A DNA stretch of 53,359 bases from an uncultured Bdellovibrionales bacterium. Its GTDB lineage: Bacteria > Patescibacteriota > Minisyncoccia > Moranbacterales > UBA1568. The stretch is from contig CAZQWS010000006.1 in NCBI GenBank assembly GCA_964597355.1, positions 1 to 53,359 on the forward strand, written 5' to 3'. Position 1 is the first letter of the stretch. Each line of letters begins with the position of its first letter. A program made the translations under genes and the position numbers. The notes under the pieces were generated by a model. It made no database searches and was not told the DNA's origin. It worked only from the letters and a program-made list of their open reading frames with translations. Of the stretch, positions 18,461-42,630 are shown one piece after another.

Positions 18461-18669
18461 GCGAATTGAATCCTCACGCTTTTGGGTTACCTAAGATTCT
18501 AACTCGGAAAGTATCCACTTCAAAAACTTTTTTCTCATGCGTTATATTTTTACATAAATTTATAATTCTGTCAATAGTAACGTTACTGGTATCTCTTCAA
18601 ATGTGTTATCTAATTGAGTTAAACCATTGGAAAAGCTACAATGTGAAGGTATACCAACTGATACATTTT

Positions 18670-21335: not shown

Positions 21336-22463
21336 ATGCGTATTCTCTTTGTTTCACGGGCTTTTCCGCCCACTATTGGTGGTATCGAAAAGCAAAATGC
21401 TGAAGTGGCTGAGTTTTTGGGGAGAAAGGCACCACTCACCCTGATTGCCAATACGCGAGGGAAAAGTTTTCTCCCTGTTTTTTTACCTTTGGCCATGTTG
21501 CAAATCCTCTGGAAAGCGAGAAAACATGATTGTCTCCTCCTCGGTGATGGGGTCATCGCTCCACTGGGAGCCGTAGCGAAATTTATCTTTCCAAAGTTAA
21601 CTGTAGTCTCGATTATTCATGGACTAGATCTCACCTTTGGCAAACAAACTGGCTTATTTGCTCGAATATACCAATGGGTCAACATCCCCTCTCTCAAAAA
21701 ACTGGATGGGCTTATTTGTGTTAGCCAAAATACCAAAGCGATCGCTGAATCCGTCGGTGTAAAGCCCGAAAAAATCTCGGTCATCCCAAACGGTGTCGAT
21801 CCGAGCTTCTTCAATGAAACCCATACCCGAACTGAACTCGAAAAGCTTCTCAAGCGAGATTTGAGCCAAGAGAAAGTTATTCTCCGTCTTGGACGCTTTG
21901 TGAGGCATAAGGGAGCTGAATGGTTTATCAGAAATGTCATGCCCAAACTTCCTGAGCATGTTATTCTCGTCGCGGCTGGTGGCGTCGCCAAGGGAGCTCA
22001 TCCCGGTGATAGTAATATCTTTCCTCTTTGCGAAACAGCCGTCCGTGAACTTGGGCTAGAGAAAAGAGTCATTCTCCTTCCCAATGTTCCTTGGTCTACC
22101 GTCAAGCTCCTCCTCTCGACCGCTGATGTGGCGGTAGCTCCCAATATTCCAGTCGTGGGGAGCGCCGAGGGCTTTGGCATCGCCGTGATTGAAGCTTCAC
22201 TAAACCGTTTACCCATCGTGACCTCGCGCCTCGAGGGGCTCCAAGAAGCTCTCGTCGATGGAGAAAACGGACTTTTCGCTGAACCAGAAAATGCCGATGA
22301 TTTCGTCGCAAAAATTAACTGGCTCTTGGCTGATGATACTCGCCGGAAAGAGTTTGGCGAGAAAGCCCGGGCATATACCCTCGAGCACTACAGTTTGGAC
22401 ACTCTTTCCGATCGATACCTTGAAGTATTAAAAAATATCTCTACAAAGGGCCGACCTTTGTAA
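21336..22463 (+). CDS. GT4 glycosyltransferase
   Basis: FPPTIGGIE, IIHGLD, IPNGVD, GRFVRHKG, AEGFGIAVIEA. Confidence 0.93.
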   Translation: MRILFVSRAFPPTIGGIEKQNAEVAEFLGRKAPLTLIANTRGKSFLPVFLPLAMLQILWKARKHDCLLLGDGVIAPLGAVAKFIFPKLTVVSIIHGLDLTFGKQTGLFARIYQWVNIPSLKKLDGLICVSQNTKAIAESVGVKPEKISVIPNGVDPSFFNETHTRTELEKLLKRDLSQEKVILRLGRFVRHKGAEWFIRNVMPKLPEHVILVAAGGVAKGAHPGDSNIFPLCETAVRELGLEKRVILLPNVPWSTVKLLLSTADVAVAPNIPVVGSAEGFGIAVIEASLNRLPIVTSRLEGLQEALVDGENGLFAEPENADDFVAKINWLLADDTRRKEFGEKARAYTLEHYSLDTLSDRYLEVLKNISTKGRPL

Positions 22464-22467
22464 AAAT

Positions 22468-24417
22468 ATGGTTGAAACATTTCTTCTTTTTACCACTCTC
22501 GCACTGACTTTTTTCCTCCCCGGCTGGCTTTTCTTACACGTATTCTGGAAAAACAAATTCTCTTTCCTTGAAGAGAGTCTTTATTCTTTCGCCCTTGGTC
22601 TCACGCTTGTAAACGCACTAGCACTTATTCTTGATCGGCTCAACGTACCACTTTCTTTTACTGTCCTCGCTTCCTCTTTGGTACTGATACATATAGCGCT
22701 TGGTGGTATTCTCTGGTACCGAAATCGAATATCAACAATCAACAATCAACAATCAAATATTCTTGGAAATTGGAAATTGGAAATTGGAAATTCACGAATG
22801 TGGAGCCTTCTCCTCCTCATGCTCGTGATTACTATCGGCATCAAAGCCTACTACCTCGTGCCAGCTGGACTCCCTACTGCGACTGACATGGGCCATCATA
22901 TGTATTGGGCCAAGTATATTGCCGATAAACAAGAGCTCCCTGTTTACCAAAAAATCGAAGTAACGACTGATACCACCACTGGCGCCACGACGGTTACCCC
23001 TCCAGGCCATATCGCTGACTTTATCATTGGCGAGCATATCCCCTTTGGAGTTATTTCCATTCTCTCGGGACTTTCCCTCATTAGTTCTTTCCCCGTACTC
23101 GTCCTTTTGCTTATCAATCTCCTGTCGCTCCTTGGCATGCTCGCCCTCACCCTCCGTCTCGGACAAAGCCTTTGGAGTGAACAAGAACGCTCTCTCTTTG
23201 TACTCGGCACCTTTCTTTTTCTTGGACCACTCTTTGCCCTCGCTTCTCCACAGGCCAAATTTGTTTCGGGTGGTGTCGTGGGCAATCTCCTCGGGAATTT
23301 TTTCATCCCGCTTATTCTTCTCGCTTTCTATCTTGGTCTCCGTGAAAAACGCGGGGGCTTCATCGCGCTCGGCACCCTCCTCATGGGCACCCTCGCCTAC
23401 ACGCATCACCTCTCTACGCTCGTTCTTGGTTTTATCCTCATTGGTATTGCTCTCATGGCCTTACTCACAGTATGGAGAGATTTTCTTCCTACTGTGAAAA
23501 CATGGTTACTCACTTGCTTCAAGCCTTCCGTAGGCATCGTCGTTCTCGGCATAGCGCTCTTTCTTCTTTTTATCGCCGTCCCGAGCTATTTGGACCGTGA
23601 AGCCATCGATTCAGCTATCGGGAGCCCGGTCAAAACCACGCGCACTGGCCTTTCGTATTTCCAAGTCACCAATTCTCTCGGTATTGGGAAAAGCGCTCTC
23701 GCCATTGCTGGGTTGGTCCTTCTCGTTATCACCTGGAAGCGGTTTGAAAAACAGGATCCACTCGCTTGGGGACTCCTCTTTGGTTGGGCCGTGATGCTCT
23801 CACTCATGGCGATGAAGCCGCACTGGCTTTTCCTTGATATTCCGTCCAACCGGGTGGGCAGTTACCTCATTTATCCTGCTGGCCTTCTCGCTGGCTATGC
23901 CTTTATGGTCATGGCCAATGCCTTGGCCACGGCCAAAAAGAAAACCCTGGCCACTCTCCTCGGCAGTCTTCTCCTCGGTGTTATTGTCGCCAATGGTGTC
24001 TTTGAAAATGGAGCTGCTCTCAGCACGGTGAACAAAGCTCGCGAAGCTCAGGAAGTTTTCACCGCTTCGAAGTATCTCAGTGAAAAAACGAGCGAAACAG
24101 AAATGATCCTCAAGGACCACAATTATCTCGCCGCCGATGCCTGGATGAAGCTCTTCTTCGTCCGCGATTATGGTTATCCTCTCTCACGTGGTCTCTTCTC
24201 TCGCTACGAAGAAACCGGCAGCCGCCGCGAGCGTTGCACCCTCGTCATGATAGCGAGTCCCAATAGCACCGAAGCCAAGGAGTGTTTCGACGGTACTGGT
24301 ACCAACTACATCGTCGTCAATCCTACCTTTGACGCCGTCCAATTTGAAAAGTCAGGCGGCTTCGCCAAAGTCTACGCCAGCGACCACGTGGTGGTGTTCA
24401 AGCGCTTGCAAGAATAA
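22468..24417 (+). CDS. Polytopic membrane protein, probable GT-C-fold glycosyltransferase
   Basis: Many TMs, luminal-loop motif PTATDMGHHMYW, YTHHLS, soluble C-terminal domain. Family inferred from topology and context. Confidence 0.65.
   Translation: MVETFLLFTTLALTFFLPGWLFLHVFWKNKFSFLEESLYSFALGLTLVNALALILDRLNVPLSFTVLASSLVLIHIALGGILWYRNRISTINNQQSNILGNWKLEIGNSRMWSLLLLMLVITIGIKAYYLVPAGLPTATDMGHHMYWAKYIADKQELPVYQKIEVTTDTTTGATTVTPPGHIADFIIGEHIPFGVISILSGLSLISSFPVLVLLLINLLSLLGMLALTLRLGQSLWSEQERSLFVLGTFLFLGPLFALASPQAKFVSGGVVGNLLGNFFIPLILLAFYLGLREKRGGFIALGTLLMGTLAYTHHLSTLVLGFILIGIALMALLTVWRDFLPTVKTWLLTCFKPSVGIVVLGIALFLLFIAVPSYLDREAIDSAIGSPVKTTRTGLSYFQVTNSLGIGKSALAIAGLVLLVITWKRFEKQDPLAWGLLFGWAVMLSLMAMKPHWLFLDIPSNRVGSYLIYPAGLLAGYAFMVMANALATAKKKTLATLLGSLLLGVIVANGVFENGAALSTVNKAREAQEVFTASKYLSEKTSETEMILKDHNYLAADAWMKLFFVRDYGYPLSRGLFSRYEETGSRRERCTLVMIASPNSTEAKECFDGTGTNYIVVNPTFDAVQFEKSGGFAKVYASDHVVVFKRLQE
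22731..22790. repeat. In-frame heptamer arrays (ATCAACA)x3-4 and (TTGGAAA)x4 inside the CDS
   Basis: ATCAACA at 22731, 22738, 22745 (ATCAAAT 22752); TTGGAAA at 22763, 22770, 22777, 22784; encodes STINNQQSNILGNWKLEIGN. Confidence 0.85.
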
Positions 24418-24834: not shown

Positions 24835-25845
24835 TTATTCCACAACAGCCAATAAAGATTGGAAACTCTCTTTGATCCACTCTTCATCCAAGTTGCGGCC
24901 GATGAAGACGAGCTTGGTTTCTTTGGCTTCACCTTCTCGCCACTCCCGGTCCGGATGAACTGTATAGAGCGTATGCACGCCCTGGAGCACGCCGCGTTTC
25001 CCCTCGAATTCATCGGTATAGACGATACCCTTGTAGCGGAGGAGATCTGGCCCACTGCGTTCAATTACTTCACCCAGCCAAGCGTACAATGCGTCAATTT
25101 TTATAGGCTTGGATGAGCGCACCACTACAGAATTAATGTCGTGGAGATGATCTTCATGTTCATGTTCTTCTTCGAGAAAATCTTCAGGGACATGCCGGAA
25201 GCTATTTTTCCCAAACAACTCTCCGAGAGGGACATCTGATTGCACCGCTTCGAGAATTTTTGCTTCGTGATTGAGGCCGTGTATCTTTTTCTTTACCGTT
25301 TCTTTTTCTTCATTGGTCAAAAGATCGCATTTATTGAGGATAAGGATATCCGCGAGGGCGATTTGCTCGGCCGAGAGTGGTAGGTACCCAAGCTGCTTCC
25401 CAATATGTTTACCATCGACGACCGTGACGATCGCGTCGAGCTCATAGCAAGTGGCTACTACTTCGTCGAGGAGAAAGGTCTGAATGAGAGGCAAAGGATC
25501 AGCGAGACCTGTTGTTTCGATCACCACTCGGTCAAATTCTTTCTTTTCGCCTTCAATTCCAAGCTTCGCTTTGGCGAGCTTGGTCAAAGTATCAATAAGA
25601 TCTACCCGCACCGTGCAACAGAGACAGCCGTTATTGAGCTCGACCATCGATTCATCGCGCGCCACGATGAGATCCCCATCGATCCCCACCTGACCAAATT
25701 CATTCACAATCACCGCGATTTTTTCGCCGTGCTCTTCTTTCAAAATTCTATTAAGCAAAGTAGTTTTGCCCGCGCCAAGAAAGCCGGTAAGCAGAGTTAC
25801 TGGGATCTTTTTGAAGGGAATATCAGGAGTATTTTGGGCATTCAT
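24835..25845 (-). CDS. COG0523 (CobW/YjiA/YeiR-like) G3E P-loop GTPase, metallochaperone
   Basis: LTGFLGAGKTT, NEFG, GCLCCTV (CxCC), IETTGLADP, NKCD, His-rich EHEHEDHLH, CobW_C with RYKG. Confidence 0.95.
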   Translation of the reverse strand: MNAQNTPDIPFKKIPVTLLTGFLGAGKTTLLNRILKEEHGEKIAVIVNEFGQVGIDGDLIVARDESMVELNNGCLCCTVRVDLIDTLTKLAKAKLGIEGEKKEFDRVVIETTGLADPLPLIQTFLLDEVVATCYELDAIVTVVDGKHIGKQLGYLPLSAEQIALADILILNKCDLLTNEEKETVKKKIHGLNHEAKILEAVQSDVPLGELFGKNSFRHVPEDFLEEEHEHEDHLHDINSVVVRSSKPIKIDALYAWLGEVIERSGPDLLRYKGIVYTDEFEGKRGVLQGVHTLYTVHPDREWREGEAKETKLVFIGRNLDEEWIKESFQSLLAVVE

Positions 25846-25929: not shown

Positions 25930-26292
25930 ATGCTTCAAATAAGCCAAAAAACCTTTCTCCTGGCAGGAGTGGCCTTGCTTTTTATCGTTTCGAGTGCCCT
26001 CTTTGCGTACCATAAGCGCGCCCTTGACCCAATGGTCACTGGCGACTGGTGGGCGATTCGTTTTGTCTCGCTTCAGGATGAAGAGGACCTTCGTTTTGAA
26101 GTAGAGAACCACAGTCCGATCACCGAAGGAACGTATCAAATCTTTGCCGATACCACTCTCCATGAAGAAAGTCGTTTTGAAGTTGCGACCAGTACTGTAA
26201 CTACGGTTACTCCAACCAAAGAGCTAGCCAATACCAAGCGTATTCGCATCCTGGTAAAGCTTGGAAACAAAGAACAATCACTCATTCGTTAA
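25930..26292 (+). CDS. Small membrane-anchored protein with a beta-rich (Ig-like?) extracellular domain
   Basis: Single N-terminal TM, then alternating beta-strand-like segments; first gene of the GT4-RtcB unit. Confidence 0.65.
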   Translation: MLQISQKTFLLAGVALLFIVSSALFAYHKRALDPMVTGDWWAIRFVSLQDEEDLRFEVENHSPITEGTYQIFADTTLHEESRFEVATSTVTTVTPTKELANTKRIRILVKLGNKEQSLIR

Positions 26293-26294
26293 CT

Positions 26295-27419
26295 ATGCCC
26301 AAAAAAGTCCTGCTTGCTACCCGTCCGCTTGTTCCTCCTTGGGATGAAGCCTCCAAAAATTTCGCTTACTTTCTCGGGCGTGAGGTACGAAATCATGAGC
26401 TTACTCTTCTCACTACTAAAGAAAAACTCATCGGCCTTCCCGAAACGGTTACCGAAGAACCGATTTTTGAAAGCAATCACCTTGATCTCTCAGCCAAACT
26501 AAACCTGTTTCGCTATCTTCGTAAAATGCGAAAGAATTTTGATATTACTCATTACCTTTTTACTCCTACCAAGCAAAATTCAACCCTTATCAAACTTCTG
26601 GCAAAACCAACCCACGGAAAAACACTCCAAACCATCGCTACCCTCCGAGAAGACCTCTACTCTCCAGAAGAACTCCGTTCCATGCTTTTTGCTGATCATC
26701 TGATCGTTTATACCGATCTCACTAAGGAGAAGCTCGAGAAACTTGGCTTTAATAATGTTTCGCGTATCTATCCAGGAATTGATCTCGAACTCTATCGGCC
26801 TACGGGAAAAAATCAGAACGTTCTCGATACCTACCACCTCAGTCCGGAAGACTGCTTCATTATCTATCCTGGCGAATATACTCGCCTAGGTGCGACCGAT
26901 ATACTCACAGAGGCCTTTATCGAATATTTTACTCAGCATCTTGAAAGCCGAGTAAAGTTTCTCTTTGCCTGTCGGATCAAAAACGAAGTCGACGCAAAAA
27001 AGCGTGAAGCACTCCGAAAAATAGTTACCGAAAAAGGTTTGGCAGACAAGATCCTCTTCGATGAAAACAATGCTACCTTTGACATGCCTGCCCTCTACAA
27101 CACCGCTGACCTCGTTCTCTTTCCGGTAGAAAACCTCCGGGGAAAATTTGATGTTCCCCTGGTGATTATCGAAGCCTATGCCTGTGGTAAGCCCGTTATC
27201 CTCAGCGATTTACCCCAGTTCCGAGAATTTACAAATAGTGATATTTGTGTTACTATCCCCAAAGACTCAAAGGAGAAATTACTTGAATCTGTGGCTTATT
27301 TAAGCCAAAATGAAGCTGAAAGAATGCGTCTAGGAGAAAAAGCTCGACGCTTTGTAAAAGATCATTTTGATCTCAAAAATACTGCCAAGCAGTATGAAGA
27401 GGTCTATTCTTCTCTCTAA
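26295..27419 (+). CDS. GT4 glycosyltransferase (atypical EX7E)
   Basis: GT-B layout, IYPGID, LVLFP, PLVIIEAYACGKPVILSD; the first Glu of EX7E appears replaced (GKFDVP). Confidence 0.85.
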   Translation: MPKKVLLATRPLVPPWDEASKNFAYFLGREVRNHELTLLTTKEKLIGLPETVTEEPIFESNHLDLSAKLNLFRYLRKMRKNFDITHYLFTPTKQNSTLIKLLAKPTHGKTLQTIATLREDLYSPEELRSMLFADHLIVYTDLTKEKLEKLGFNNVSRIYPGIDLELYRPTGKNQNVLDTYHLSPEDCFIIYPGEYTRLGATDILTEAFIEYFTQHLESRVKFLFACRIKNEVDAKKREALRKIVTEKGLADKILFDENNATFDMPALYNTADLVLFPVENLRGKFDVPLVIIEAYACGKPVILSDLPQFREFTNSDICVTIPKDSKEKLLESVAYLSQNEAERMRLGEKARRFVKDHFDLKNTAKQYEEVYSSL

Positions 27420-27494
27420 TTCATCTCGAACTCTCTACGGGTCTTCATAATTCTTATTTTGACCCTCTAGAGCTCTCTTTTTCAAAATTATAGT

Positions 27495-29000
27495 ATGTAC
27501 GAACAAGCCTTCAAAAAAATTTCAGAACACAAAAGTGAAATGCGGACGGAAAAGATGAAAGTGCCGGTCGTGTTTCATATTGGGGAAAAACTCATGCCCA
27601 ATGTCGATACTTTGGCCCAGCTCGAAAGTGTGGCCAGCAACGATTCGGTGTCACAACATATCGCTGCTATGGCTGATGTTCACAGTAAGCCTGGCCGAAA
27701 AAATGCTACCGGTACCACTGTTGTTTCCGAAAAGTTTATCCTGCCTCAGGTCAATGACTCTGACCCTGCTTGTGGAATGCGTTTGGTCCGTCTCAATCTC
27801 GACGAAAGCAATATCACTCCCGAAGAAATTGATCGCGTCTTCCAGGCAGCTACCAAAACTGTTCCGACCAAAAAATATGTAGGGACCGTATTGCCCTTCC
27901 ATGTTATCGTCGATATTTGTCGTCTCGGAATCGAGCCCCTCATCAAGTACCTCGGTATCAAGACCAAGAACGAAGCTCAAAATAGTATTGACCGCGGGAA
28001 CTTCTTCCAAACGCCGCCCAGTCGTTTTGATATTCTTCGACTCCTTCCTCCCCTCTTCCTCTTTTTTGCTCAATTCCGCGCCGGTATTATTGGCGCTGCC
28101 GGCAATCACTTTCTCGACCTCATGAAGGTAACGGATGTCATCGATCCAGAAGTGGCTGCTAAGTTTAATCTCAAGAAGGGTCAGTATATCCTCATGGTGC
28201 ACTGTGGGTCAGGCATTCTCGGCCAATACACCATGTACATGTACACCGCCAAGAAACGTGAGCATCTTTCCACGGCCATTCTCATGAATATCGGCCGCTT
28301 CTTCTGGTTGACTCCTTTCCGAAAGACTATCAATGCTATCGCTCAGAAAATCCGTGAGTCAAACTTTGGAAAGAAAGAACCCCTGATCACGTTTGATGGC
28401 GAGGGCGAGGACGGGAAGCTTTACATGCAGGCTCGCTATGCCTGCTCTAACTTCGCACATGCTAACCGAGCCACTATTACTCATAACTTCGTCAAAACGG
28501 CTGAAAAGGTATTGGGGCGGACTATCGAAGCCGATCTCCTCTACGATATGCCGCATATCCTCGTGTCACAGGAGGAACATTATGGCAAAAACATGTGGGT
28601 ACACCGGAACGGCACCTCGAGAGCCTATGGCAAGGCGCGTATGGCTGATCATCCAGTCTTCAAAGACACCGGCGAACCAGCCTTTATCCCGACTTCTATG
28701 AGTACGGAAGCCTATCTTTGCGTCGGCCAAGATGGTAACGTCACGAGTTTTTACTCATGCAATCACGGTGCCGGAAAATCTGCCAAGAAAACTGAAAGTG
28801 TCGTCCCCGAAAGCAAAGCCGAGCTCCACGAAAAGCTCAAAGAGAAAGGCGTGAAACTCTACAACGGTCGCTCGTCCAAAGTGATCGAACAGGATTCTTC
28901 GCATTACAAACGCGCTGAAGACGTGATCGAAAGCGTCGTCGAAAACGAAGTCGTTAAACCCGTCGTCAAATTGCAGCCTATTTCAGTGATCATGTATTAG
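27495..29000 (+). CDS. Divergent RtcB-family protein
   Basis: MADVH, DPACG (DxxCG), GNHFLD, VHCGS, NFAHANR, YDMPH, VHRNG, IPTSMS, CNHGAG, EQ....YK, C-terminal KLQPISV all align with the RtcB motif order. Symbol withheld because several conserved residues differ. Confidence 0.88.
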   Translation: MYEQAFKKISEHKSEMRTEKMKVPVVFHIGEKLMPNVDTLAQLESVASNDSVSQHIAAMADVHSKPGRKNATGTTVVSEKFILPQVNDSDPACGMRLVRLNLDESNITPEEIDRVFQAATKTVPTKKYVGTVLPFHVIVDICRLGIEPLIKYLGIKTKNEAQNSIDRGNFFQTPPSRFDILRLLPPLFLFFAQFRAGIIGAAGNHFLDLMKVTDVIDPEVAAKFNLKKGQYILMVHCGSGILGQYTMYMYTAKKREHLSTAILMNIGRFFWLTPFRKTINAIAQKIRESNFGKKEPLITFDGEGEDGKLYMQARYACSNFAHANRATITHNFVKTAEKVLGRTIEADLLYDMPHILVSQEEHYGKNMWVHRNGTSRAYGKARMADHPVFKDTGEPAFIPTSMSTEAYLCVGQDGNVTSFYSCNHGAGKSAKKTESVVPESKAELHEKLKEKGVKLYNGRSSKVIEQDSSHYKRAEDVIESVVENEVVKPVVKLQPISVIMY

Positions 29001-29041
29001 TATTACACTGAAATCATTCTTCACTATCTCTCGTCTCGCTT

Positions 29042-29641
29042 ATGCAAATTATCACTCTCTCTGGTGTCGACGGGAGTGGGAAAAGCACCCAACTCACTCA
29101 CTTACAACAACTCCTCGAAGCAAAGGGAGGAAAGGTTGCCTATATTCATGCCGTAGCCTTTAGTCTCCCCCAAGCTGCTCGTGGCCTTTTTATACGCCCT
29201 CAAAAAGAAAAGACTCCGAGTAAAGCCAAAGCAAAAAGCGGTTTCGTTGGTGTTTTCCTTCGAAAAATAATCCTCCTCATTGATCTCATCCGTTTTCATT
29301 TCTTTGTAAAACAGCTCAAAAAAGCCGGCGTACACTACCTTCTCTCTGACCGGTATTTTTATGATACCCTCGTCAATATCGCCTATCTCGATGGTACCAA
29401 GCTCAATACTTCTTTTGCTCGCCTTGCCAATCGATTCATTCCCAAACCAAACAAAGCCTACTATCTCAGAGTTACCCCTGAGAAAGTTATGGAACGACCA
29501 AGAAAGCCAGAGCAAGGCCTTCAGTACCTCAAAGATAAAACCATTCTTTTCAATGAAGCTGCGCTTCTGTGGTCATTCATCACTCTCGATGCAGACCAGC
29601 CAATCGAGACAGTAGCCGAATCTTTGCATCAATCCTTATGA
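29042..29641 (+). CDS. Thymidylate-kinase-like P-loop kinase (DRYxYD subtype)
   Basis: SGVDGSGKSTQ P-loop, LLSDRYFYD, PKPNKAYYLRV; lacks the REPGG and AYQG motifs of housekeeping Tmk. Confidence 0.8.
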   Translation: MQIITLSGVDGSGKSTQLTHLQQLLEAKGGKVAYIHAVAFSLPQAARGLFIRPQKEKTPSKAKAKSGFVGVFLRKIILLIDLIRFHFFVKQLKKAGVHYLLSDRYFYDTLVNIAYLDGTKLNTSFARLANRFIPKPNKAYYLRVTPEKVMERPRKPEQGLQYLKDKTILFNEAALLWSFITLDADQPIETVAESLHQSL

Positions 29642-29692
29642 AGCAAAAACCTGCCCGGCACTCCGCTTGCTTACAACTCTTGTAAAGAGACT

Positions 29693-31219
29693 ATGTCATC
29701 CAAAGAACATCTCTCATCAACAGATTCAAAACCACATTCTTCAAAGCGTGGTGCGGGGTTTGCCCAAGCCGTCATCTGGCTCACCCTCGCTGAAATCATC
29801 TACAACTTGTCAGGGTATATCGTCCATGCGCTCACTGGCCGCTTTCTTGGGCCGGCTGAATATGGTCGCTACGGACTCGTTATCACCCTCACTACCATGG
29901 TGATTGTCCTCGTGGGAAACGGCATCCCTACGGCCATGTCCAAATATCTTTCTGCGGCTTCAGAAAAAGATCCAGGAACTATTTATGGCATTCGTCGGGC
30001 TGCCTTTCGGATTCAACTCATTCTCATGGGGAGCCTTACTTTTCTTTTTTTCCTCGCAGCGCCCCTCATCGCCTCACTCTTGCGTGATCCAAGTCTTACT
30101 CCGCTGTTCCAACTTTCGAGCCTCATCATTCCTACTTTTGCTGCTGCCTCTTTCAATCTCTATTTCTTTATTGGCCTCCATTTTTTCCGGGTTCAAGCCT
30201 TCCTCAAAACCCTCCGCTCATTGGGACGAATTATCTTTATCGGTGGTCTCGCTTTTATGAGTGGCACCTGGGGCGCAGTAACGGGTAATATCCTCGCGCC
30301 ACTCATTGTTTTCCTCGTCGGGCTCACTCTAGAGCCCTGGCTCATGCGACGCTACTTTCCTGAAGCTCATCAAGCCAAAACGACTGCCTCGAGCTTTCCT
30401 TGGCGTGACATCGTATCACAGGCGCTTCCCTTGACCCTCTTCCTCCTTTTCTACGAACTCATTCTCACGGTCGATCTTTTCTTGGTAAAAATTCTTCTCG
30501 CCGATGATCATCTAACCGGTATTTACAATGCCGCTATTACTGTCGGACGTATTCCTTATTATCTTTTTTACGCTCTCGCTATCGCCCTTCTTCCGACCAT
30601 TGCTAAGACTGAGGCTCATCGTGACACGGAAGCTACCAAGAAACTCCTGAGCCAATCTTTCCGTCTCATGCTTTTCTTACTCATTCCGCTTGTTGTACTC
30701 CTGGCTCGCTACGCCCCTGAGACCCTTCATCTCTTCTATGGCAATGCTTTCCTTGAAGCAGCTCTCCCTATGACTATTCTCACTATCGGTGTCGGCTGTC
30801 TCACGGTTTTTTATGTCTTTACTTTTGCTATGAATGGAGCAGGACTGCTTCGTTTCCCGCTTCAACTCTCAATTGCTGGCGTTATGCTCGGTCTCGCGCT
30901 CAACCTGACCCTTATCCCGCTGTATAGTCTCATTGGTGCAGCACTCGCCGTTACGATCGTTTCTTTCCTTCTCATGCTCGGTATCCTCATCAAAGTCTTC
31001 ACTCACTTCAAACTTTCATTCCCGTGGCGTACGGTTTTCTTTTCCTTCCTCGGAGTGCTTCTCCTATGGTTCGTCAGCCGGTTCCTGCCCGATGGCAGCT
31101 GGTTCATTCTCTCCAGTACTATTCTTGGAGTCATTTACCTCAGTTTCCTCTATCTCACCAAGGCCTTGACCCCAGAAGACCTCGCCCCTTTCAAGAAATT
31201 CGTTAAACGCTCAGCTTAG
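29693..31219 (+). CDS. Wzx-like oligosaccharide flippase (MOP superfamily)
   Basis: ~14 TM, RFLGPAEYG, GIYNAA, NLTLIPLYSLIGAALA. Confidence 0.9.
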   Translation: MSSKEHLSSTDSKPHSSKRGAGFAQAVIWLTLAEIIYNLSGYIVHALTGRFLGPAEYGRYGLVITLTTMVIVLVGNGIPTAMSKYLSAASEKDPGTIYGIRRAAFRIQLILMGSLTFLFFLAAPLIASLLRDPSLTPLFQLSSLIIPTFAAASFNLYFFIGLHFFRVQAFLKTLRSLGRIIFIGGLAFMSGTWGAVTGNILAPLIVFLVGLTLEPWLMRRYFPEAHQAKTTASSFPWRDIVSQALPLTLFLLFYELILTVDLFLVKILLADDHLTGIYNAAITVGRIPYYLFYALAIALLPTIAKTEAHRDTEATKKLLSQSFRLMLFLLIPLVVLLARYAPETLHLFYGNAFLEAALPMTILTIGVGCLTVFYVFTFAMNGAGLLRFPLQLSIAGVMLGLALNLTLIPLYSLIGAALAVTIVSFLLMLGILIKVFTHFKLSFPWRTVFFSFLGVLLLWFVSRFLPDGSWFILSSTILGVIYLSFLYLTKALTPEDLAPFKKFVKRSA

Positions 31220-31245: not shown

Positions 31246-31307
31246 AGGCTTATCCAAGCCTTTTTTAATATTATAGTATTGACTCAAATTAAGAAAAGTG
31301 CTATAGT
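31246..31307 (+). promoter_or_regulatory. Cassette-2 left hairpin/terminator and sigma70 promoter
   Basis: AGGCTT-ATCC-AAGCCT-TTTTT (31246-31266); TTGACT 31279-31284, N17, TG-C-TATAGT 31299-31307. Confidence 0.75.
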
Positions 31308-31383
31308 TTATCGTTGCAAAGTCTCGAACTGTGCAATGGCTGTATTCCCGGCCATTAGGGAAAGTTCTTTCAAGGAGAGCACA

Positions 31384-34166: not shown

Positions 34167-35942
34167 TTATTCTTTTATATCTTCCGTAGGATCATCATGC
34201 TCTTTGACAGATTCCTCCCGGGAGAAAAACTCTCGCAGAGTATAGCGTGGCGCCACTCGAGATCGAGGCTCTTTTGGTGGTTTGGAGAAATCCTGACGCT
34301 CGGCCGTGATCGCCTCTTCCTTTGGCAAAAGCTCGATAGCGGTAAGGGTGCCAAAAGAAGTTTTGGTTCCTACACTATAGTATGGAAGATATTTTTCTAA
34401 GGACTTCTCGTGAGGAGAACTCGTTCGAATAACAAGGAAATATACTCCTTCACGATAAATATTTGTTATACCGAGTGCGTCACTCTGTAGACCACGCTTA
34501 CTTATATGGTAATTGAGTGCTCGTTCATAGTGAGATTCACTCGCCATATAAATCGGCTGATTGGTTTCTCGGGAACGTTTTTCGAGAAAGTCCACAATGG
34601 CTTTTTGTTGCTCGAGAGTAACCCGCGTCGGCTCCTTGAGAATACGGTCAGGAGCGCTCATCACCGCTTCCGTCTTGGCACGCGATAATTCATCAAAACG
34701 AGCGAGGAGAAAATGAAGATTAGTGAAGATAAAAAGACCTAGCACTCCTACCATAAATCCCTTCCCGAGACGACCAGGCAAGAAAAGTTTTTGAAGGACA
34801 AGAATGAAACAACCCAACAAGAGGAAAAAGAGCGGGGCGTTTGGCAGAAAAAAACGAGGAGCGATGCCGTAAGAAAGCGGGAGGTAGAGTACAAAAGTGA
34901 CACCAAACCAAATAAGAGCCAAGAGAAGGAGGTCTTTCTTCCTTGTTTCTGTCTCTCGCCACCAGAGATACATGAGCGAAAGAAGAGCGAGGCCAAGGAG
35001 GATAACCGCTCCTACCCCATACCACTTTCCTTTGTCGCACTTCGCATCACAGATAGATCCAATCACTCCATTGGAAAGCACAATCGACGGGAAGGTAGCT
35101 CCTTCGAAACCCGTGAGAATCACAACGCTATGAAGCCCGAATTCACTTACATCTCGGACAGCTTTTTCGATAAGCGGGTGGTCTTCTTTTTCAGATTTTT
35201 CCGTCAAAGCCCCGATAAATTCACGAGCATTAGCACCTCCACTAGCCATTTCATTGAGCATCATCGGGAGATAAAGAAGAGCAACAATGGCGAGGGCTCC
35301 TCCCCAAAATTTGAGGGCTATCCTTGGCCGCTTTATCAAAAGGAATGCGACTGCAATCGTAGGGAGAGCCATGAAAGCCAGGAAATGCATATGTGTCGCC
35401 ATAGAGAGACCAAAGGCACTAAGAAAAAGCCAGCAGCCTTGATATTTTTCCTCGGCATCAACAGCTCGGAGCAGAGCATAGAAACCGAGCAGCGAGAAAA
35501 ACGGTACCAAATTGGGATTCCATGCAAAGCGGCCGTACATAACGAGAAAAGCCGATACGGAGAAAAGTGCCGTAAGGCCAAGTGAAAGAGGGACTGCAAA
35601 GAATCTGCGGGCCAGCAAATAAAAAAGCGGCAAAGTAAGGATAGAGAAGAAGGCTACCATAGCCGCTCCACCTACTACAGAATCACCCGTAAAAAGTCCG
35701 CCGAGATAGGTAAGCCAATAAAAGCCAGGACCCAAACGAAGGAAAGTTCCTCCTGCTCGGGGGCCGAGAAGCGGTAGGTCAGCTGCATCACCAGCGAGAG
35801 CCTGATCAATTACTTGGACATCTCGGGCTTGATCAAGCTCAAAGTGAAGCCAGTCGCCCAAGTTATATGTACGGAGGAATAGCCCCATCCCGATAATAAG
35901 CAAAAAAACTGCCCAAAATACTTGTTTTTTTGACCAATTCAT
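34167..35942 (-). CDS. GT-C glycosyltransferase (ArnT/PMT-like)
   Basis: HFELDQARD first-loop acidic motif, LLGP, GRFAWNPN, multi-TM core, RFFL, soluble C-terminal domain. Confidence 0.85.
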   Translation of the reverse strand: MNWSKKQVFWAVFLLIIGMGLFLRTYNLGDWLHFELDQARDVQVIDQALAGDAADLPLLGPRAGGTFLRLGPGFYWLTYLGGLFTGDSVVGGAAMVAFFSILTLPLFYLLARRFFAVPLSLGLTALFSVSAFLVMYGRFAWNPNLVPFFSLLGFYALLRAVDAEEKYQGCWLFLSAFGLSMATHMHFLAFMALPTIAVAFLLIKRPRIALKFWGGALAIVALLYLPMMLNEMASGGANAREFIGALTEKSEKEDHPLIEKAVRDVSEFGLHSVVILTGFEGATFPSIVLSNGVIGSICDAKCDKGKWYGVGAVILLGLALLSLMYLWWRETETRKKDLLLLALIWFGVTFVLYLPLSYGIAPRFFLPNAPLFFLLLGCFILVLQKLFLPGRLGKGFMVGVLGLFIFTNLHFLLARFDELSRAKTEAVMSAPDRILKEPTRVTLEQQKAIVDFLEKRSRETNQPIYMASESHYERALNYHISKRGLQSDALGITNIYREGVYFLVIRTSSPHEKSLEKYLPYYSVGTKTSFGTLTAIELLPKEEAITAERQDFSKPPKEPRSRVAPRYTLREFFSREESVKEHDDPTEDIKE

Positions 35943-36042
35943 GTGATTCCTTTTTGGAAGAAGTTACGCTATACTGAGCTCATTGAAGAAGCTTTTTTCT
36001 TCTTTAATTTTACGCTATTTTTCCTGATTGTCCACGATTTTT

Positions 36043-38292
36043 ATGCTCCAACCTCTTTCTCTTCTTTCTCTTCGTTTACTCCTTCTCTTCACCACCTATT
36101 GTTTTGTCGTCCAACCGTTTTGGCTCTTTTCTTTCCTCCAATGGTTCCCCAGTAATGAATTTTTCTATGCTATTTTTACTCTCCTCGGAGGCATAACGGT
36201 TTGGGTGACTTGGCGTCACCATCGCGAATTGAATGCCTCCTTCAAAAGTCTTCTCGTTTCCTTTTTCCCGGTGGCCCTCATCATTGGAGTCGGGCCTTTC
36301 TTTGCCCGGGAATTTCACTACCTCGTTCACCTTTCTGTCGGACTGTATACCATCAGTGTTTTGGTGTTCTGGGCCAGAAATTTCATCCGCCACGCCAAAA
36401 GTCAGGATGAAGACACAAGCGCACTCAAAGTTTTCTCCCCTTTCTCATGGAAGAAAAAGAGTAACCGCTTAGCCCTACTCTTTGTCACTATACTCACTCT
36501 CTCTTTCTTTGCTTTTGGATACCAAAATCTCACTCGTTTTGCCGCAGTTGACGAGCCGCTCTGGCTCGATGGTCGGATTGGCAATTTCTGGAAGCATCTC
36601 TCTCTCGAACACATGGACAAAACGCTTATCAGTGATAAGCCTGGGATCACCGTAGCCATCGCCAGCGGGCCCGGACTCTGGTTTGTCCACCCCAAAGACT
36701 ACCGTGATACCAGAAATGACTTTGAGACTAAGCACCCCGGCACCAACATAGAAGATCTCTACTTGGCCTTTCGCCTCCCTCTTCTCATCACCATTACCTT
36801 TCTTTTACCTCTGTTTTACCTTCTTCTCGCTCCTCTCGTAGGTACAAGTGCTGCTCTCTTTGGCTACACTGCCATCACCCTCTCGCCCGTCCTCATTGGA
36901 ATGAGTAAAATCGTCAATCCCGACTCGCTGCTTTGGGTCTTTGCCCCGCTTTCTTTCTTGGCCTATCTCGTTTTTCTGGAAAAAAAATCGTGGCGCTTCC
37001 TCATCCTTTCAGGAGTGTTCTTTGGACTCGCTCTCCTCACCAAGTACGTCGCTAATTTTCTTGTTGTCTATCTCTTTACTCTTTCTTTCCTCTATCCACT
37101 TTGGAAGCAAGGCGAGCATCTCACTTTGAGTTTTCTCTTCAAGGTGTTTCTTGTTTGGTTTGGTATTGGCATCGCCACCCTCTATCTCTTTGTACCTGCT
37201 TTCTGGGTAGCACCAAGTACTATTCTCGCGAGTACCATATTTAGCCAAGCCTTTGAAAAAGTCGCCTGGATTTTTATCACCCTCATGACCTTGGTATTCA
37301 TTGACCAGTTCCTGGTAAAAAGCCGGGTCAGTATTTTCTTCATTGACACCCTTAAGCCCTACGGTGGCATGTTCGGGAAAATTATCCTCGGATTTTTCGT
37401 TTTAGCTTTCGGCTTTGCTTTTTTGAATAGCCTCTTCGGTATGCCTTGGATTCATTTCAGCGAGATGCTTGCCTCTCCAAAAACTTCAGGACTCGATCAC
37501 ACCATTCGTCTTTTCTTTACTAATTTTTACCCCCTCGCTTTTGGAGTTGCTCCGCTTATCCTTCTCGGTATGAGTGCCGCACTCTGGCGAACATGGCAGA
37601 CTCATTTCCGCAGCTTCACCGCGCTCCATCGCCTCATCCTTGCTGTCATAGTATTTATTCCTCTGTATTATTTTGGTTCTACTGTTAACGGTGTAGTCCT
37701 CATCAACCGTTATCAAATCATGCTCTATCCTCTCCTTGCTCTTGTAGGAGGCATCGGACTTTTTATCCTTATTGAAGTTCTCTGGAAATATTTACGAAAA
37801 TCTCCACCCCCTACAGGTGCTTCTTTCGTTTTTCTTGCTGGCATTGGGTTTTTTCTTGCAATTTCTCCTCTTTTTACTCACTTTCCCCTCTCATACACAT
37901 CTTCCCTTCTCCCAAAGCCTTACTCAGTCGATGTTAAGGATATGGGTGCAGGAAGCTACGAAGCAGCCATGTATCTCAATAGTCTCCCTGATGCCAAAAA
38001 CACCACTATCTGGACGGATAAGAGTGGGGTATGTAAATTCTATGTTGGTCCATGTATCGATGGCTTTACGAAACGACATCTTCAAGAATATAAAGTGCGG
38101 TATATTGTTCTTTCTTCTGGCCGTCAGTCTCGCACTGAGAATCGATTCACTTCCGAAGATCACACCTTTAACCCCAATGACCTAGCCATTACTCGACTCA
38201 ATACTTACTATGGCCGCGAAGATGCCTTGCATACTATTAAAATCAATAATCGCCCTAGTCAATACGTAAAAATTTTCACACTCAATCAATAA
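36043..38292 (+). CDS. GT-C glycosyltransferase (ArnT/PMT-like) with extra N-terminal TMs
   Basis: AVDEPLW (DE motif), DKPGITVA, NPDS, LLTKY, RY, EAAMYLNSLP, CKFYVGPC. Start taken at ATG 36043. Confidence 0.85.
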   Translation: MLQPLSLLSLRLLLLFTTYCFVVQPFWLFSFLQWFPSNEFFYAIFTLLGGITVWVTWRHHRELNASFKSLLVSFFPVALIIGVGPFFAREFHYLVHLSVGLYTISVLVFWARNFIRHAKSQDEDTSALKVFSPFSWKKKSNRLALLFVTILTLSFFAFGYQNLTRFAAVDEPLWLDGRIGNFWKHLSLEHMDKTLISDKPGITVAIASGPGLWFVHPKDYRDTRNDFETKHPGTNIEDLYLAFRLPLLITITFLLPLFYLLLAPLVGTSAALFGYTAITLSPVLIGMSKIVNPDSLLWVFAPLSFLAYLVFLEKKSWRFLILSGVFFGLALLTKYVANFLVVYLFTLSFLYPLWKQGEHLTLSFLFKVFLVWFGIGIATLYLFVPAFWVAPSTILASTIFSQAFEKVAWIFITLMTLVFIDQFLVKSRVSIFFIDTLKPYGGMFGKIILGFFVLAFGFAFLNSLFGMPWIHFSEMLASPKTSGLDHTIRLFFTNFYPLAFGVAPLILLGMSAALWRTWQTHFRSFTALHRLILAVIVFIPLYYFGSTVNGVVLINRYQIMLYPLLALVGGIGLFILIEVLWKYLRKSPPPTGASFVFLAGIGFFLAISPLFTHFPLSYTSSLLPKPYSVDVKDMGAGSYEAAMYLNSLPDAKNTTIWTDKSGVCKFYVGPCIDGFTKRHLQEYKVRYIVLSSGRQSRTENRFTSEDHTFNPNDLAITRLNTYYGREDALHTIKINNRPSQYVKIFTLNQ

Positions 38293-38304
38293 CTCATTAT
38301 CTGT

Positions 38305-41353: not shown

Positions 41354-41413
41354 ACTTTATGTCTCATCTAAGCCATTTTTACCATTGACTTTTCCATAAA
41401 AACATGCTATCAT
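41354..41413 (+). promoter_or_regulatory. Cassette-3 left element and sigma70 promoter
   Basis: ACTTTATGTCTCATCTAAGCCATTTTT (22/27 identical to 42441-42467); TTGACT 41385-41390, N17, TG-C-TATCAT 41405-41413. Confidence 0.75.
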
Positions 41414-41495
41414 TATAAGTTGCGTTACCAAAGCGCGACACAGTCCCCTTACCGTAAGGTAAGGTGTTGAAAATTCTTCTCTGAAGGAAAGCTAG

Positions 41496-42359: not shown

Positions 42360-42371
42360 GTCCACACCTTG

Positions 42372-42513: not shown

Positions 42514-42630
42514 AGCATGTCACGCTGGAAAAGGCGTGCCAAGAGTCATCCTGCTCCCAAGCAGGGTTTACAACCAGTAAGCTTGTAGGGCATACTTAGA
42601 AGCCCTCAAGCCTACCCTCTGGAGATGTTC

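What the first reader, a model, noticed from the sequence alone, without database searches (positions are those of the whole stretch)
27459..31219. Candidate new system: RtcB-like ligase + Tmk-like kinase + Wzx flippase inside a surface-glycan locus
Seen: GT4, RtcB-like, P-loop kinase and flippase are co-directional with gaps of 75, 41 and 51 nt, in the middle of a glycosylation region. A possible internal promoter (TTGACC-N18-CAAAAT-N6-ATG) precedes the RtcB-like gene. No rtcA, archease, TROVE/Ro or tRNA is nearby. The kinase is the DRYxYD subtype lacking the housekeeping Tmk motifs. Inference: the kinase phosphorylates a hydroxyl on a sugar, polyol or nucleoside; the RtcB-like enzyme activates that phosphomonoester and makes a phosphodiester bridge on a lipid-linked glycan before flipping. 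That would be an NDP-donor-independent route to phosphodiester-decorated glycans, or possibly a nucleic acid-glycan conjugate. I know of no described RtcB in glycan synthesis.
Basis: partly seen in the sequence, partly recalled or inferred. Interest (0 to 1): 0.85.

Follow-up and report, generated by a model that had tools for sequence, protein, structure and literature searches.

The report
Divergent RtcB inside envelope-glycan gene block
A Moranbacteria (Patescibacteria) genome carries an unusual RtcB-type ligase and a thymidylate-kinase-like gene fixed inside a conserved cell-surface sugar gene block; the linkage is real across about 100 related genomes, but nothing beyond position shows that the two enzymes work on sugars rather than on RNA and nucleotides.

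Summary
GT4 (26295-27419), an RtcB-family gene (27495-29000), a Tmk-fold kinase (29042-29641) and a Wzx flippase (29693-31219) are co-directional, with gaps of 75, 41 and 51 nt. The order UDPGDH-GT2-GT4-membrane protein-small protein-GT4-RtcB-Tmk-like-Wzx recurs in about 90 Moranbacteria-type loci, down to 43-46% RtcB identity.

Linkage is loose. Unrelated or opposite-strand genes separate RtcB from the kinase in 41 of 76 genomes. Orthologues with the same signature residues lie next to CysRS/RF1 or YvcK/EF-P, with no kinase or flippase nearby.

The RtcB keeps every metal ligand and the histidine nucleophile. It is the most conserved gene in the block. It has lost both guanine-specific contacts and the Arg238 clamp for the 5'-OH strand.

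The kinase keeps the P-loop, both phosphate-binding arginines and DRY. That fits an NMP kinase, not a hydroxyl kinase, and canonical tmk is reported as scarce in Parcubacteria.

Best reading (~0.5): a divergent RNA-end ligase and the lineage's divergent dTMP kinase, inherited as passengers in an envelope operon. A glycan phosphodiester role is not excluded (~0.15). The proposed promoter is no better than chance.

The parts
18466..19956 (+). UDP-glucose/GDP-mannose dehydrogenase, first gene of the conserved collinear block
   Evidence: Pfam PF03721, PF00984 and PF03720. Found at the same position in L085, L087, L171 and L172.
20378..21331 (+). GT2 glycosyltransferase
   Evidence: PF00535, 72.7 bits. 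Collinear in distant loci.
21336..22463 (+). GT4 glycosyltransferase (GT4a)
   Evidence: PF00534, 97 bits. Median 44% identity across 45 genomes.
22468..24417 (+). Polytopic membrane protein of 649 aa
   Evidence: Weak DUF6077 match in the window. Orthologues carry DUF1616/DUF6541.
24835..25845 (-). CobW/COG0523 GTPase on the opposite strand, a lineage-specific insertion in the block
   Evidence: PF02492 and PF07683. Found at this position in only 8 of the 80 genomes; L055 has a distant (26% identity) CobW homologue elsewhere, on the + strand just upstream of RtcB.
25930..26292 (+). Small protein of 120 aa with a hydrophobic N-terminus; always precedes GT4b
   Evidence: No Pfam match. The hydrophobic N-terminus is read from the sequence. 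Collinear in 50 genomes at a median of 31% identity.
26295..27419 (+). GT4 glycosyltransferase (GT4b), the tightest neighbour of RtcB
   Evidence: PF00534/PF13692. Lies within 400 nt upstream of RtcB in 56 of 67 genomes. Distance-matrix correlation with RtcB is 0.70.
27459..27488 (+). Promoter-like hexamers TTGACC-N18-CAAAAT
   Evidence: Present, but a 9/12 match. Site count is 8 against 6.1 +/- 2.4 in shuffles, so not above chance.
27495..29000 (+). Divergent RtcB-family ligase, 501 aa
   Evidence: PF01139, 229 bits. AlphaFold2 model pLDDT 92; only RtcB structures match it (4dwq, TM 0.80). Ligands D90, C93, H205, H236 and H354 and nucleophile H424 are kept. E206->D208, K480->M500, R238->G240, H242->Q244 and R190->F191.
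29042..29641 (+). Thymidylate-kinase-fold P-loop kinase (Tmk-like), 199 aa
   Evidence: PF02223, 38 bits. Profile against PDB: PfTMPK at E 1.7e-12. AlphaFold2 model pLDDT 87; the top 50 PDB fold matches are all Tmk. Invariant residues G8, D10, G11, G13, K14, S15 of the GxDGSGKS P-loop (S12 about 90%), R84, D103-R104-Y105 and R152.
29693..31219 (+). Wzx/MOP-family flippase, 508 aa
   Evidence: PF01943, 107 bits, and PF13440. Directly follows the Tmk-like gene in nearly every locus.
34167..40209 (.). Three PMT_2/PMT (GT-C) glycosyltransferases that usually flank the block downstream
   Evidence: PF13231/PF02366. Recurrent but variable in number and position.

Best explanation
The region is part of a collinear block of about ten genes for extracytoplasmic glycosylation: UDPGDH, GT2, GT4a, a polytopic membrane protein, a small membrane protein, GT4b, [RtcB], [Tmk-like], Wzx, then GT-C enzymes. 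Moranbacteria and their relatives have inherited this block vertically.

Two genes in it are not glycan enzymes by family.

(1) A catalytically intact member of a small, divergent RtcB subfamily seen here only in Patescibacteria-type contigs. I infer that it still works as RtcB enzymes do: histidine nucleotidylation, transfer of NMP to a terminal phosphomonoester, then attack by a hydroxyl. Its substrate would be a polynucleotide 3'-phosphate end, in RNA repair or processing. Nucleotide specificity is probably changed, and the 5'-OH strand is probably held differently.

(2) A divergent thymidylate-kinase-fold NMP kinase. I infer this is the lineage's (d)TMP/(d)NMP kinase.

On this reading both are housekeeping passengers. 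They are co-expressed with the block and kept in place by low rearrangement, in the way adk, map and secY sit in the ribosomal-protein super-operon (my own knowledge).

Shown here: family, fold, conserved residues, synteny and its exceptions. Inferred: the substrates of both enzymes.
For: RtcB family membership
- Pfam 229 bits. The fold matches only RtcB structures.
- All metal ligands and the His nucleophile are conserved (residue roles from PMC8051266).

Conservation
- RtcB is by far the most conserved gene in the block. Median identity to the window over 80 genomes is 75%, against 60 for GT4b, 53 for Wzx, 44 for GT4a, 43 for Tmk-like, 42 for the membrane protein and 31 for the small protein.
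- That pattern fits a conserved macromolecular substrate.

Orthologues outside the block
- Orthologues with the same subfamily signature (D208, G240, Q244, K253/E256/H257, C-terminal LMY or LMA) lie outside any glycan block.
- One context is RtcB-CysRS next to RF1 and L31.
- The other is YvcK-RtcB next to EF-P, L9, ArgRS and tRNA genes.
- So the function does not need the kinase or flippase nearby.

Loose linkage
- Both boundaries of RtcB accept unrelated insertions. An opposite-strand Wzy-like gene, Nudix and a YjbQ-like gene lie between RtcB and Tmk-like; the kinase is more than 400 nt away in 41 of 76 genomes.
- ZnuABC-Zur-CobW, Nudix, a nucleotidyltransferase and an MBL-fold gene lie between GT4b and RtcB.

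Other housekeeping genes in the same region
- GluRS, LigT, PriA, Fmt, GroES, CobW and an HD-domain protein are scattered through it.

The kinase
- Its fold hits are all thymidylate kinases.
- It keeps D10, R84, D103-R104-Y105 and R152, which align with dTMP- and ATP-binding residues of PfTMPK.
- Canonical tmk is reported as poorly represented in Parcubacteria genomes (PMC4508563).
Against: - The block order survives to 43-46% RtcB identity with differing flanks. That is more than trivial collinearity.
- GT4b and RtcB are adjacent in 84% of genomes, sometimes with overlapping coding regions. Their distance matrices correlate best of any pair involving RtcB (r = 0.70).
- The Tmk-like gene was never seen anywhere except between RtcB and Wzx (8 of 8 kinase-centred samples).
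- The RtcB has lost both guanine-specific contacts of PhoRtcB (Glu206, Lys480). It has also lost Arg238, whose E. coli counterpart, when mutated, slows sealing 200-fold, and Arg190 and His242. Canonical RNA ligation with GTP therefore cannot be assumed.
- The kinase's NMP-binding segment (residues ~45-66) is variable and modelled with low confidence. The base-recognition motifs of Tmk are missing.
- No RNA substrate, archease, RtcA or intron-containing tRNA was found.
Confidence: 0.5

Rival explanations
1. The RtcB-like enzyme has been recruited to envelope-glycan synthesis; this is the first reader's idea, generalised. It would use its His-NMP/two-metal chemistry to activate a phosphomonoester on a sugar, polyol or lipid-linked intermediate as an X-O-P-P-N species. 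It would then either join that to a hydroxyl as a phosphodiester or hand the activated donor to a transferase. It would work with GT4b and the small membrane protein before Wzx flipping.
For: - Deep conservation of the block, with RtcB always in the same slot after GT4b. Adjacency is 56 of 67 and distance correlation 0.70.
- Subfamily-wide loss of the polynucleotide 5'-OH-strand clamp (R238->G, R190->F/I/M, H242->Q) and of both guanine contacts (E206->D, K480->M).
- In clade E, the same subfamily is paired in three genomes with a YvcK-type CofD-family protein (TIGR01826, named there as a UDP-GlcNAc-binding protein), with two different sets of flanks.
- From my own knowledge: CofD enzymes transfer a phospho-moiety from a GDP-activated phosphoester and release GMP. 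That is the same chemical logic as RtcB step 3.
- No TagF, LicD or Stealth-type phosphotransferase appeared among the ~50 window ORFs scanned.
Against: - The only evidence is gene position. Envelope genes are roughly half of this window, so adjacency to one has a high prior.
- Orthologues occur without glycan neighbours.
- RtcB is much more conserved than any glycan gene in the block.
- Unrelated genes are tolerated on both sides of it.
- An invariant Arg (R195) replaces Gln194 on the path of the 5'-OH strand, and the inserted segment carries invariant K253/E256/H257. RNA binding may simply be rebuilt.
- No non-nucleic-acid RtcB substrate turned up in the literature I searched.
- The kinase looks like an NMP kinase, not a hydroxyl kinase.
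Confidence: 0.17
2. RtcB and the Tmk-like kinase form a two-enzyme nucleic-acid or nucleotide module that has nothing to do with the glycan genes. Examples would be end-healing plus sealing, or recycling of the NMP released by the ligase. On this reading the kinase acts on a polynucleotide end or on the ligase's nucleotide by-product.
For: - The kinase was never found without RtcB upstream: about 75 RtcB-centred loci and 8 of 8 kinase-centred loci.
- Both families act on nucleotides or phosphorylated ends.
- The two genes are separated by only 3-50 nt in about a third of genomes.
Against: - A 5'-kinase would destroy RtcB's 5'-OH substrate.
- The kinase's fold matches are all thymidylate kinases, with no polynucleotide kinase among the top 50.
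- RtcB orthologues exist without the kinase.
- Opposite-strand genes separate the pair in many genomes.
- The kinase is more tightly tied to Wzx than to RtcB.
- Identity of the kinase to the window does not track that of RtcB (r = -0.17).
Confidence: 0.1
3. The RtcB-like protein is a catalytically dead scaffold or regulator, kept for a structural role.
For: Some more distant relatives of the subfamily have lost active-site residues. P0251 lacks the NHF histidine and the nucleophile histidine.
Against: The window protein and all of clades A-E keep every metal ligand, N204-H205, H424 and Y471-K472, and are under strong purifying selection.
Confidence: 0.03

Closest known systems
RtcB 3'-phosphate/5'-OH RNA ligase (Pyrococcus horikoshii PH1602, E. 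coli RtcB, human RTCB)
   Same: Same fold (TM 0.80 to 4dwq). Binuclear-metal ligands Asp/Cys/His x3, the NHF motif and the His nucleophile in HGAG(K/R) are all conserved.
   Different: - Only ~25% identity.
- Glu206->Asp and Lys480->Met remove both guanine-specific contacts.
- Arg238->Gly, Arg190->Phe and His242->Gln remove most side-chain contacts to the 5'-OH strand.
- A ~45-residue insert follows the HxGS motif, with invariant K253/E256/H257.
- The C-terminus is ...IMY rather than ...VKG.
- No rtcA, rtcR or archease nearby; the gene sits in a glycan block.
Bacterial RtcB paralogues with altered activities (Myxococcus xanthus RtcB1-3; DNA 3'pp5'G capping by E. coli RtcB; RtcB with PrfH)
   Same: They show that RtcB-family members can differ in substrate (RNA or DNA, ligation or capping) and can sit in dedicated operons (review PMC10630183). 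NCBIfam TIGR03073 and NF007153 give partial matches.
   Different: The window protein scores far below every NCBIfam RtcB cutoff (115 against 407; 77 against 272). No release-factor homologue is adjacent. None of those paralogues is described in a glycan locus.
Thymidylate kinase (Tmk; P. falciparum TMPK 2wwf, S. tokodaii ST1543 2plr, T. thermophilus 5x8k)
   Same: Same fold (TM ~0.7; the top 50 hits are all Tmk). P-loop GxDGSGKS, the NMP-helix Arg, the DRY motif and a LID Arg are conserved.
   Different: - Below the NCBIfam equivalog cutoff (37.9 against 83.25).
- Lacks the REP and AYQ motifs.
- Has a 3-residue insertion after DRY (DRYFYDxxVNIxY).
- The variable loop at 45-66 has low model confidence, and some homologues carry a CxxC...C insert there.
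- Always encoded between RtcB and a Wzx flippase.
CofC/CofD logic of F420 biosynthesis (guanylylation of a phosphomonoester, then transfer to a hydroxyl with release of GMP)
   Same: Formally the same chemistry as RtcB steps 2 and 3. In clade E this RtcB subfamily lies directly downstream of a CofD-family (YvcK-type) gene.
   Different: This is an analogy from my own knowledge, not homology. The neighbour is YvcK-type (TIGR01826, 274-278 bits), not CofD proper (TIGR01819, 31-45 bits against a cutoff of 257). No CofD-family gene was found in the window.
Wzx-dependent glycan assembly loci with GT-C (PMT_2/ArnT-like) transferases
   Same: The surrounding genes (UDPGDH, GT2, GT4, Wzx, Wzy_C, PMT_2, LCP, WecG) are the ordinary parts list for lipid-linked glycan assembly.
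   Different: To my knowledge, and in the literature searched, such loci are not described with an RtcB-family gene or a Tmk-fold kinase as fixed members.

Membership tests
RtcB family (PF01139) | Sequence match above the curated Pfam threshold | tested here: met
   229.1 bits against a cutoff of 27, covering profile positions 1-424 of 426.
RtcB family (PF01139) | RtcB fold | tested here: met
   AlphaFold2 model pLDDT 92.3. The only significant PDB matches are 16 chains from 9 RtcB/RTCB entries; 4dwq_A has E 1e-36 and TM 0.80.
RtcB family (PF01139) | Binuclear metal site (Pho Asp95, Cys98, His203, His234, His329) and His404 nucleophile | tested here: met
   D90, C93, H205, H236, H354 and H424 are present. 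All but D90 are invariant in clades A-E. Clades C-E have Ala at the D90 position, with D88 invariant.
RtcB family (PF01139) | Guanine-specific contacts (Pho Glu206 to N1/N2, Lys480 to O6), the basis of GTP dependence | tested here: not met
   Asp208 and Met500 take their places and are invariant or nearly so in clades A-E. Residue roles are from PMC9745838.
RtcB family (PF01139) | 5'-OH strand contacts (Pho Asn202, Arg238, Arg190, Gln194, His242) | tested here: inconclusive
   Asn204 is kept. Arg238->Gly240, Arg190->Phe191 and His242->Gln244. Gln194->Arg195, which is invariant. The contacts may be rebuilt by R195 and the K253/E256/H257 insert.
RtcB family (PF01139) | 3'-phosphate/5'-OH polynucleotide ligation through enzyme-NMP and N3'pp5'N intermediates | not testable with these tools
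   Needs biochemistry.
Canonical bacterial Rtc RNA-repair operon (rtcBA-rtcR) or RtcB-archease pair | RtcA cyclase, RtcR regulator or archease encoded nearby | tested here: not met
   None among about 50 window ORFs scanned against Pfam, and none among the called neighbours in 12 looked-up contexts.
NCBIfam RtcB equivalogs (NF007153, TIGR03073) | Score above the curated equivalog cutoff | tested here: not met
   115.5 against 407, and 76.6 against 271.8.
Thymidylate kinase (PF02223 / TIGR00041) | Family score | tested here: inconclusive
   Pfam 38.4 bits passes its cutoff of 27. NCBIfam equivalog TIGR00041 at 37.9 fails its cutoff of 83.25.
Thymidylate kinase (PF02223 / TIGR00041) | Tmk fold with P-loop, NMP-helix Arg, DRY motif and LID Arg | tested here: met
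   The Foldseek top 50 are all Tmk, TM ~0.7. G8, D10, G11, G13, K14, S15, R84, D103, R104, Y105 and R152 are invariant in 32 homologues (S12 about 90%). They align to PfTMPK.
Thymidylate kinase (PF02223 / TIGR00041) | Thymine/deoxyribose recognition motifs (REP segment, stacking Phe, AYQ) | tested here: not met
   YFHAVxFS replaces the REP segment, Ile/Leu replaces the stacking Phe, and NIxYL replaces AYQ.
Thymidylate kinase (PF02223 / TIGR00041) | Being the genome's dTMP kinase (sole Tmk; dTMP phosphorylation) | not testable with these tools
   Whole genomes could not be scanned. The literature reports canonical tmk as poorly represented in Parcubacteria (PMC4508563).
Wzx/MOP flippase (PF01943) | Family score and length | tested here: met
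   107.1 bits against a cutoff of 28.2; 508 aa.
Proposed 'RtcB + Tmk-like + Wzx' functional system | Synteny recurs across divergent genomes | tested here: met
   About 90 loci with RtcB at 43-92% identity keep GT4b-RtcB-(insert)-Tmk-like-Wzx.
Proposed 'RtcB + Tmk-like + Wzx' functional system | The genes co-occur strictly (RtcB subfamily never without the kinase and flippase) | tested here: not met
   L068, L081/82, L083/84, L089 and L173/174 have the RtcB but no Tmk-like or Wzx gene within 5-8 kb.
Proposed 'RtcB + Tmk-like + Wzx' functional system | Uninterrupted co-transcription of RtcB with the kinase | tested here: not met
   The kinase lies within 400 nt in only 35 of 76 genomes. Common inserts include an opposite-strand Wzy-like gene.

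The most novel reading that the evidence does not exclude
This RtcB subfamily, seen here only in Patescibacteria-type contigs, no longer seals RNA. Instead it would use histidine-NMP/two-metal chemistry, with an altered nucleotide, to activate a phosphomonoester on a sugar, polyol or lipid-linked intermediate. From that it would form a phosphodiester or an NDP-activated donor for cell-envelope glycan synthesis. Its partner would be GT4b in Moranbacteria and a YvcK-type CofD-family protein in a sister clade.
Probability: 0.15. Interest if true: 0.9.

Novelty: new variant of a known kind. Interest (0 to 1): 0.5.

Why it matters
If the ordinary reading is right, two things follow for annotation:
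- Moranbacteria carry a recognisable, sequence-distinct RtcB subfamily whose nucleotide specificity has probably changed.
- The tmk reported as poorly represented in Parcubacteria may be this divergent kinase.

If the novel reading is right, RtcB chemistry would extend beyond nucleic acids for the first time. It would give a route to phosphodiester-linked surface polymers in bacteria with minimal metabolism.

Either way, the subfamily is a clean biochemical target: a soluble 501-aa protein with defined signature residues.

Tried and rejected
- **Internal promoter.** The motif exists but is no better than shuffled sequence. No terminator-like site lies on the + strand between GT4b, RtcB, Tmk-like and Wzx.
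- **RNA partners.** No tRNA or Rfam family in the window. No intron-containing tRNA in 60 related loci.
- **Archease, RtcA, TROVE.** Not found among about 50 ORFs.
- **Defence-system role.** No meaningful PADLOC match.
- **Phage origin.** IMG/VR holds only canonical RtcBs at 22-29% identity and none of this subfamily.
- **Kinase-centred metagenome scan.** Only six true relatives came back, all with RtcB upstream.
- **Literature.** No paper links RtcB to Patescibacteria/CPR biology or to glycan clusters. None links Moranbacteria to thymidylate kinase.
- **Co-evolution.** Distance-matrix correlations (0.39-0.70) are compatible with shared vertical descent and do not separate the hypotheses.
- **Tests I could not run.** I could not check whether the kinase is the only Tmk in a genome. 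I could not check whether clade D/E genomes keep the glycan block elsewhere.

Full report
**What is there.** ORFs at 26295-27419, 27495-29000, 29042-29641 and 29693-31219 are all on the + strand, with gaps of 75, 41 and 51 nt.
- Pfam assigns them to GT4 (PF00534), RtcB (PF01139, 229 bits), thymidylate kinase (PF02223, 38 bits) and Polysacc_synt/Wzx (PF01943, 107 bits).
- NCBIfam places the RtcB and the kinase far below every equivalog cutoff.
- Of the ~50 ORFs of the 53-kb window that I scanned, about half are envelope or glycan genes: WecG/TagA, LCP, Wzy_C, seven GT4, four GT2, two UDPGDH, three PMT/PMT_2 and an epimerase.
- Clear housekeeping genes are scattered among them: GluRS, a LigT-type 2H phosphoesterase, PriA, Fmt, GroES, an HD-domain protein and CobW.
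- There is no tRNA, Rfam family, RtcA, archease or TROVE.
- The TTGACC-N18-CAAAAT motif exists at 27459-27488, but promoter-like sites are no more frequent than in shuffles.
- Close homologues are annotated as Moranbacteria/Moraniibacteriota.

**Is the linkage more than local chance?** Yes, within one lineage.
- A scan of one genome per species returned 80 loci with RtcB at 66-89% identity. Most are labelled Moranbacteria; the rest are labelled Patescibacteria group, Minisyncoccota or, apparently wrongly, Bdellovibrionales.
- Nearly all keep GT4a, the membrane protein, the small protein, GT4b, RtcB, the Tmk-like gene, Wzx and PMT_2 in that order.
- I then reached more distant relatives through a representative-library search and a profile search.
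- The same order, including UDPGDH and GT2 upstream, holds at 53-55% RtcB identity (L087, L088, L093, L171, L172, L248). It also holds at 46-47% (L085/86, L091, L092) and at 45% (L090). Flanks outside the block differ.
- All eight samples found by starting from the kinase have RtcB upstream and Wzx downstream.

**How tight is it?** Not very.
- GT4b lies within 400 nt upstream of RtcB in 56 of 67 genomes.
- The kinase lies within 400 nt downstream in only 35 of 76.
- The RtcB|kinase junction often holds an opposite-strand O-antigen-ligase-like gene, a Nudix hydrolase or a YjbQ-like gene.
- The GT4b|RtcB junction sometimes holds ZnuABC-Zur-CobW, Nudix, a nucleotidyltransferase or an MBL-fold gene.
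- One Moranbacteria genome (L068) has RtcB with no kinase or flippase in the 5 kb downstream.
- Outside the block, P0393 (43% identity; 72% to P0242, whose own locus keeps membrane protein-GT4-RtcB) sits as RtcB-CysRS beside RF1 and L31.
- Three clade-E genomes (38-41% identity) have YvcK-RtcB beside EF-P, L9 or ArgRS and tRNA-Lys/Val, with no kinase or Wzx within 8 kb.
- These orthologues carry the same signature residues as the window protein.

**The RtcB itself.** It belongs to a small, isolated subfamily. Only 81 clusters at 50% identity score E <= 1e-30, and the nearest full-length representatives are 53, 43 and 41% identical.
- The model is confident (pLDDT 92) and matches only RtcB structures.
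- Against PhoRtcB it keeps D95/C98/H203/H234/H329 (as D90/C93/H205/H236/H354), N202 (N204), the nucleophile H404 (H424) and Y451 (Y471).
- Using residue roles from PMC8051266 and PMC9745838, both guanine-specific contacts are changed: E206->D208 and K480->M500, with the C-terminus ...IMY rather than ...VKG.
- Most side-chain contacts to the 5'-OH strand are also changed: R238->G240, R190->F191 and H242->Q244. Q194 becomes an invariant Arg195.
- A ~45-residue insert follows, with invariant K253/E256/H257.
- I infer an active nucleotidyl-transfer enzyme whose NTP preference and acceptor binding differ from canonical RtcB. The sequence cannot say what the acceptor is.
- It is the slowest-evolving gene of the block: median 75% identity, against 31-60% for the others.

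**The kinase.** Its profile finds P. falciparum TMPK (E 1.7e-12) and other Tmks in the PDB.
- Its model (pLDDT 87) matches only thymidylate kinases among the top 50 hits.
- Invariant residues are the P-loop with Asp10, Arg84 on the NMP helix, D103-R104-Y105 and LID Arg152. In Tmk, to my knowledge, the two arginines bind the phosphate of the NMP acceptor. This argues for a phosphomonoester (NMP-like) acceptor, not a hydroxyl.
- The REP and AYQ base-recognition motifs are absent, and residues ~45-66 are variable and poorly modelled.
- Nelson and Stegen (PMC4508563) noted that canonical tmk is poorly represented in Parcubacteria. That fits this divergent protein being the real dTMP kinase, but I could not scan a whole genome to check.

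**Weighing.** The most economical account (~0.5) is a vertically inherited envelope-glycan block that carries two housekeeping passengers: a divergent RNA-end ligase and a divergent (d)NMP kinase.

A direct role for RtcB in glycan chemistry (~0.15-0.2) is not excluded. In its favour are the depth of the synteny, the GT4b-RtcB pairing (distance-matrix correlation 0.70), the loss of the RNA-clamp and guanine contacts, and the independent YvcK pairing. All of this is positional or negative evidence, and envelope genes are so common in these genomes that adjacency to one is expected often.

A kinase-ligase nucleic-acid module (~0.1) is weakened in two ways: the kinase has an exclusively Tmk-like fold, and it is tied more tightly to Wzx than to RtcB.

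**Novelty.** I found no description of this subfamily, of its signature substitutions, or of an RtcB fixed in a glycan block. I class it as a new variant of a known kind. The 'new system' claim is unproven.

Noticed in passing
window 4679-5227 (-): A LigT/2H-phosphoesterase (RNA 2',3'-cyclic phosphodiesterase family; PF02834, 63.7 bits) lies next to a WecG/TagA glycosyltransferase. It is a second RNA-end enzyme family embedded among glycan genes, 22 kb upstream of RtcB. The called PriA ORF (4998-7205, TTG start) overlaps it, so one of the two starts is probably miscalled.
   Followed up: partly
L083 6953-9497; L089 6685-9617; L173 538-3152: In a sister clade (RtcB 38-41% identical to the window's), RtcB lies directly downstream of a YvcK-type CofD-family gene (TIGR01826, 274-278 bits) in three genomes with two different sets of flanks. 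tRNA-Lys(UUU), with or without tRNA-Val, lies just upstream. This may be a conserved two-gene unit.
   Followed up: partly
proteins P0245, P0249, P0251, P0257: More distant relatives of the subfamily have degenerate active sites: SHF or no NHF motif, HGAG replaced by HEIG/YEIG, and a loop deleted. P0251 lacks both the metal-ligand His and the nucleophile His, so it is probably a pseudoenzyme.
   Followed up: no
clades C-E of the RtcB subfamily: The position of the Mn2 ligand Asp95 (window D90) is Ala in clades C-E, while Asp88, two residues upstream, is invariant in the whole subfamily. The metal ligand may have shifted.
   Followed up: no
L054 6806-10001; L055 1602-5893: A zinc-uptake cassette (ZnuB, ZnuC, ZnuA, a Fur/Zur-like regulator; in L055 also a CobW-type GTPase) is inserted between GT4b and RtcB. 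These gene names are my reading of the ORF translations, not family-search results. The window and a few relatives carry a CobW gene 1.6 kb upstream of RtcB.
   Followed up: no
Tmk-like homologues P0192, P0223, P0239 and L085 9518-10126: Some homologues carry a Cys-rich insert (KKxCLxCxL...C) in the variable loop that replaces the NMP-binding segment. It may be a small metal-binding element.
   Followed up: no
L071 9009-11737: One genome shows decay of the module. GT4b is split into two frames, RtcB is truncated at residue 475, and only residues ~122-184 of the kinase remain. This is either a real deletion or an assembly error.
   Followed up: partly
L028 versus the window: Similarity is mosaic. 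In L028, GT4b (77%) and RtcB (89%) are among the closest to the window, while its GT4a, membrane protein and kinase are only 41-46% identical. Kinase identity to the window does not track RtcB identity (r = -0.17). This suggests recombination within the block, or very uneven rates.
   Followed up: partly
record titles of L001, L002, L005 and many others: Many third-party-assembled MAGs that carry this Moranbacteria-type block are titled 'uncultured Bdellovibrionales bacterium'. This looks like a taxonomic mislabel in the source records.
   Followed up: no
window 31279-31773 (+), 41379-42413 (-), 42625-43113 (+): These ORFs of 164, 344 and 162 aa have no Pfam match. The first directly follows Wzx and begins at the best promoter-like site of the region, which overlaps its TTG start (31279-31307; 10/12 match with a TG extension).
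   Followed up: no
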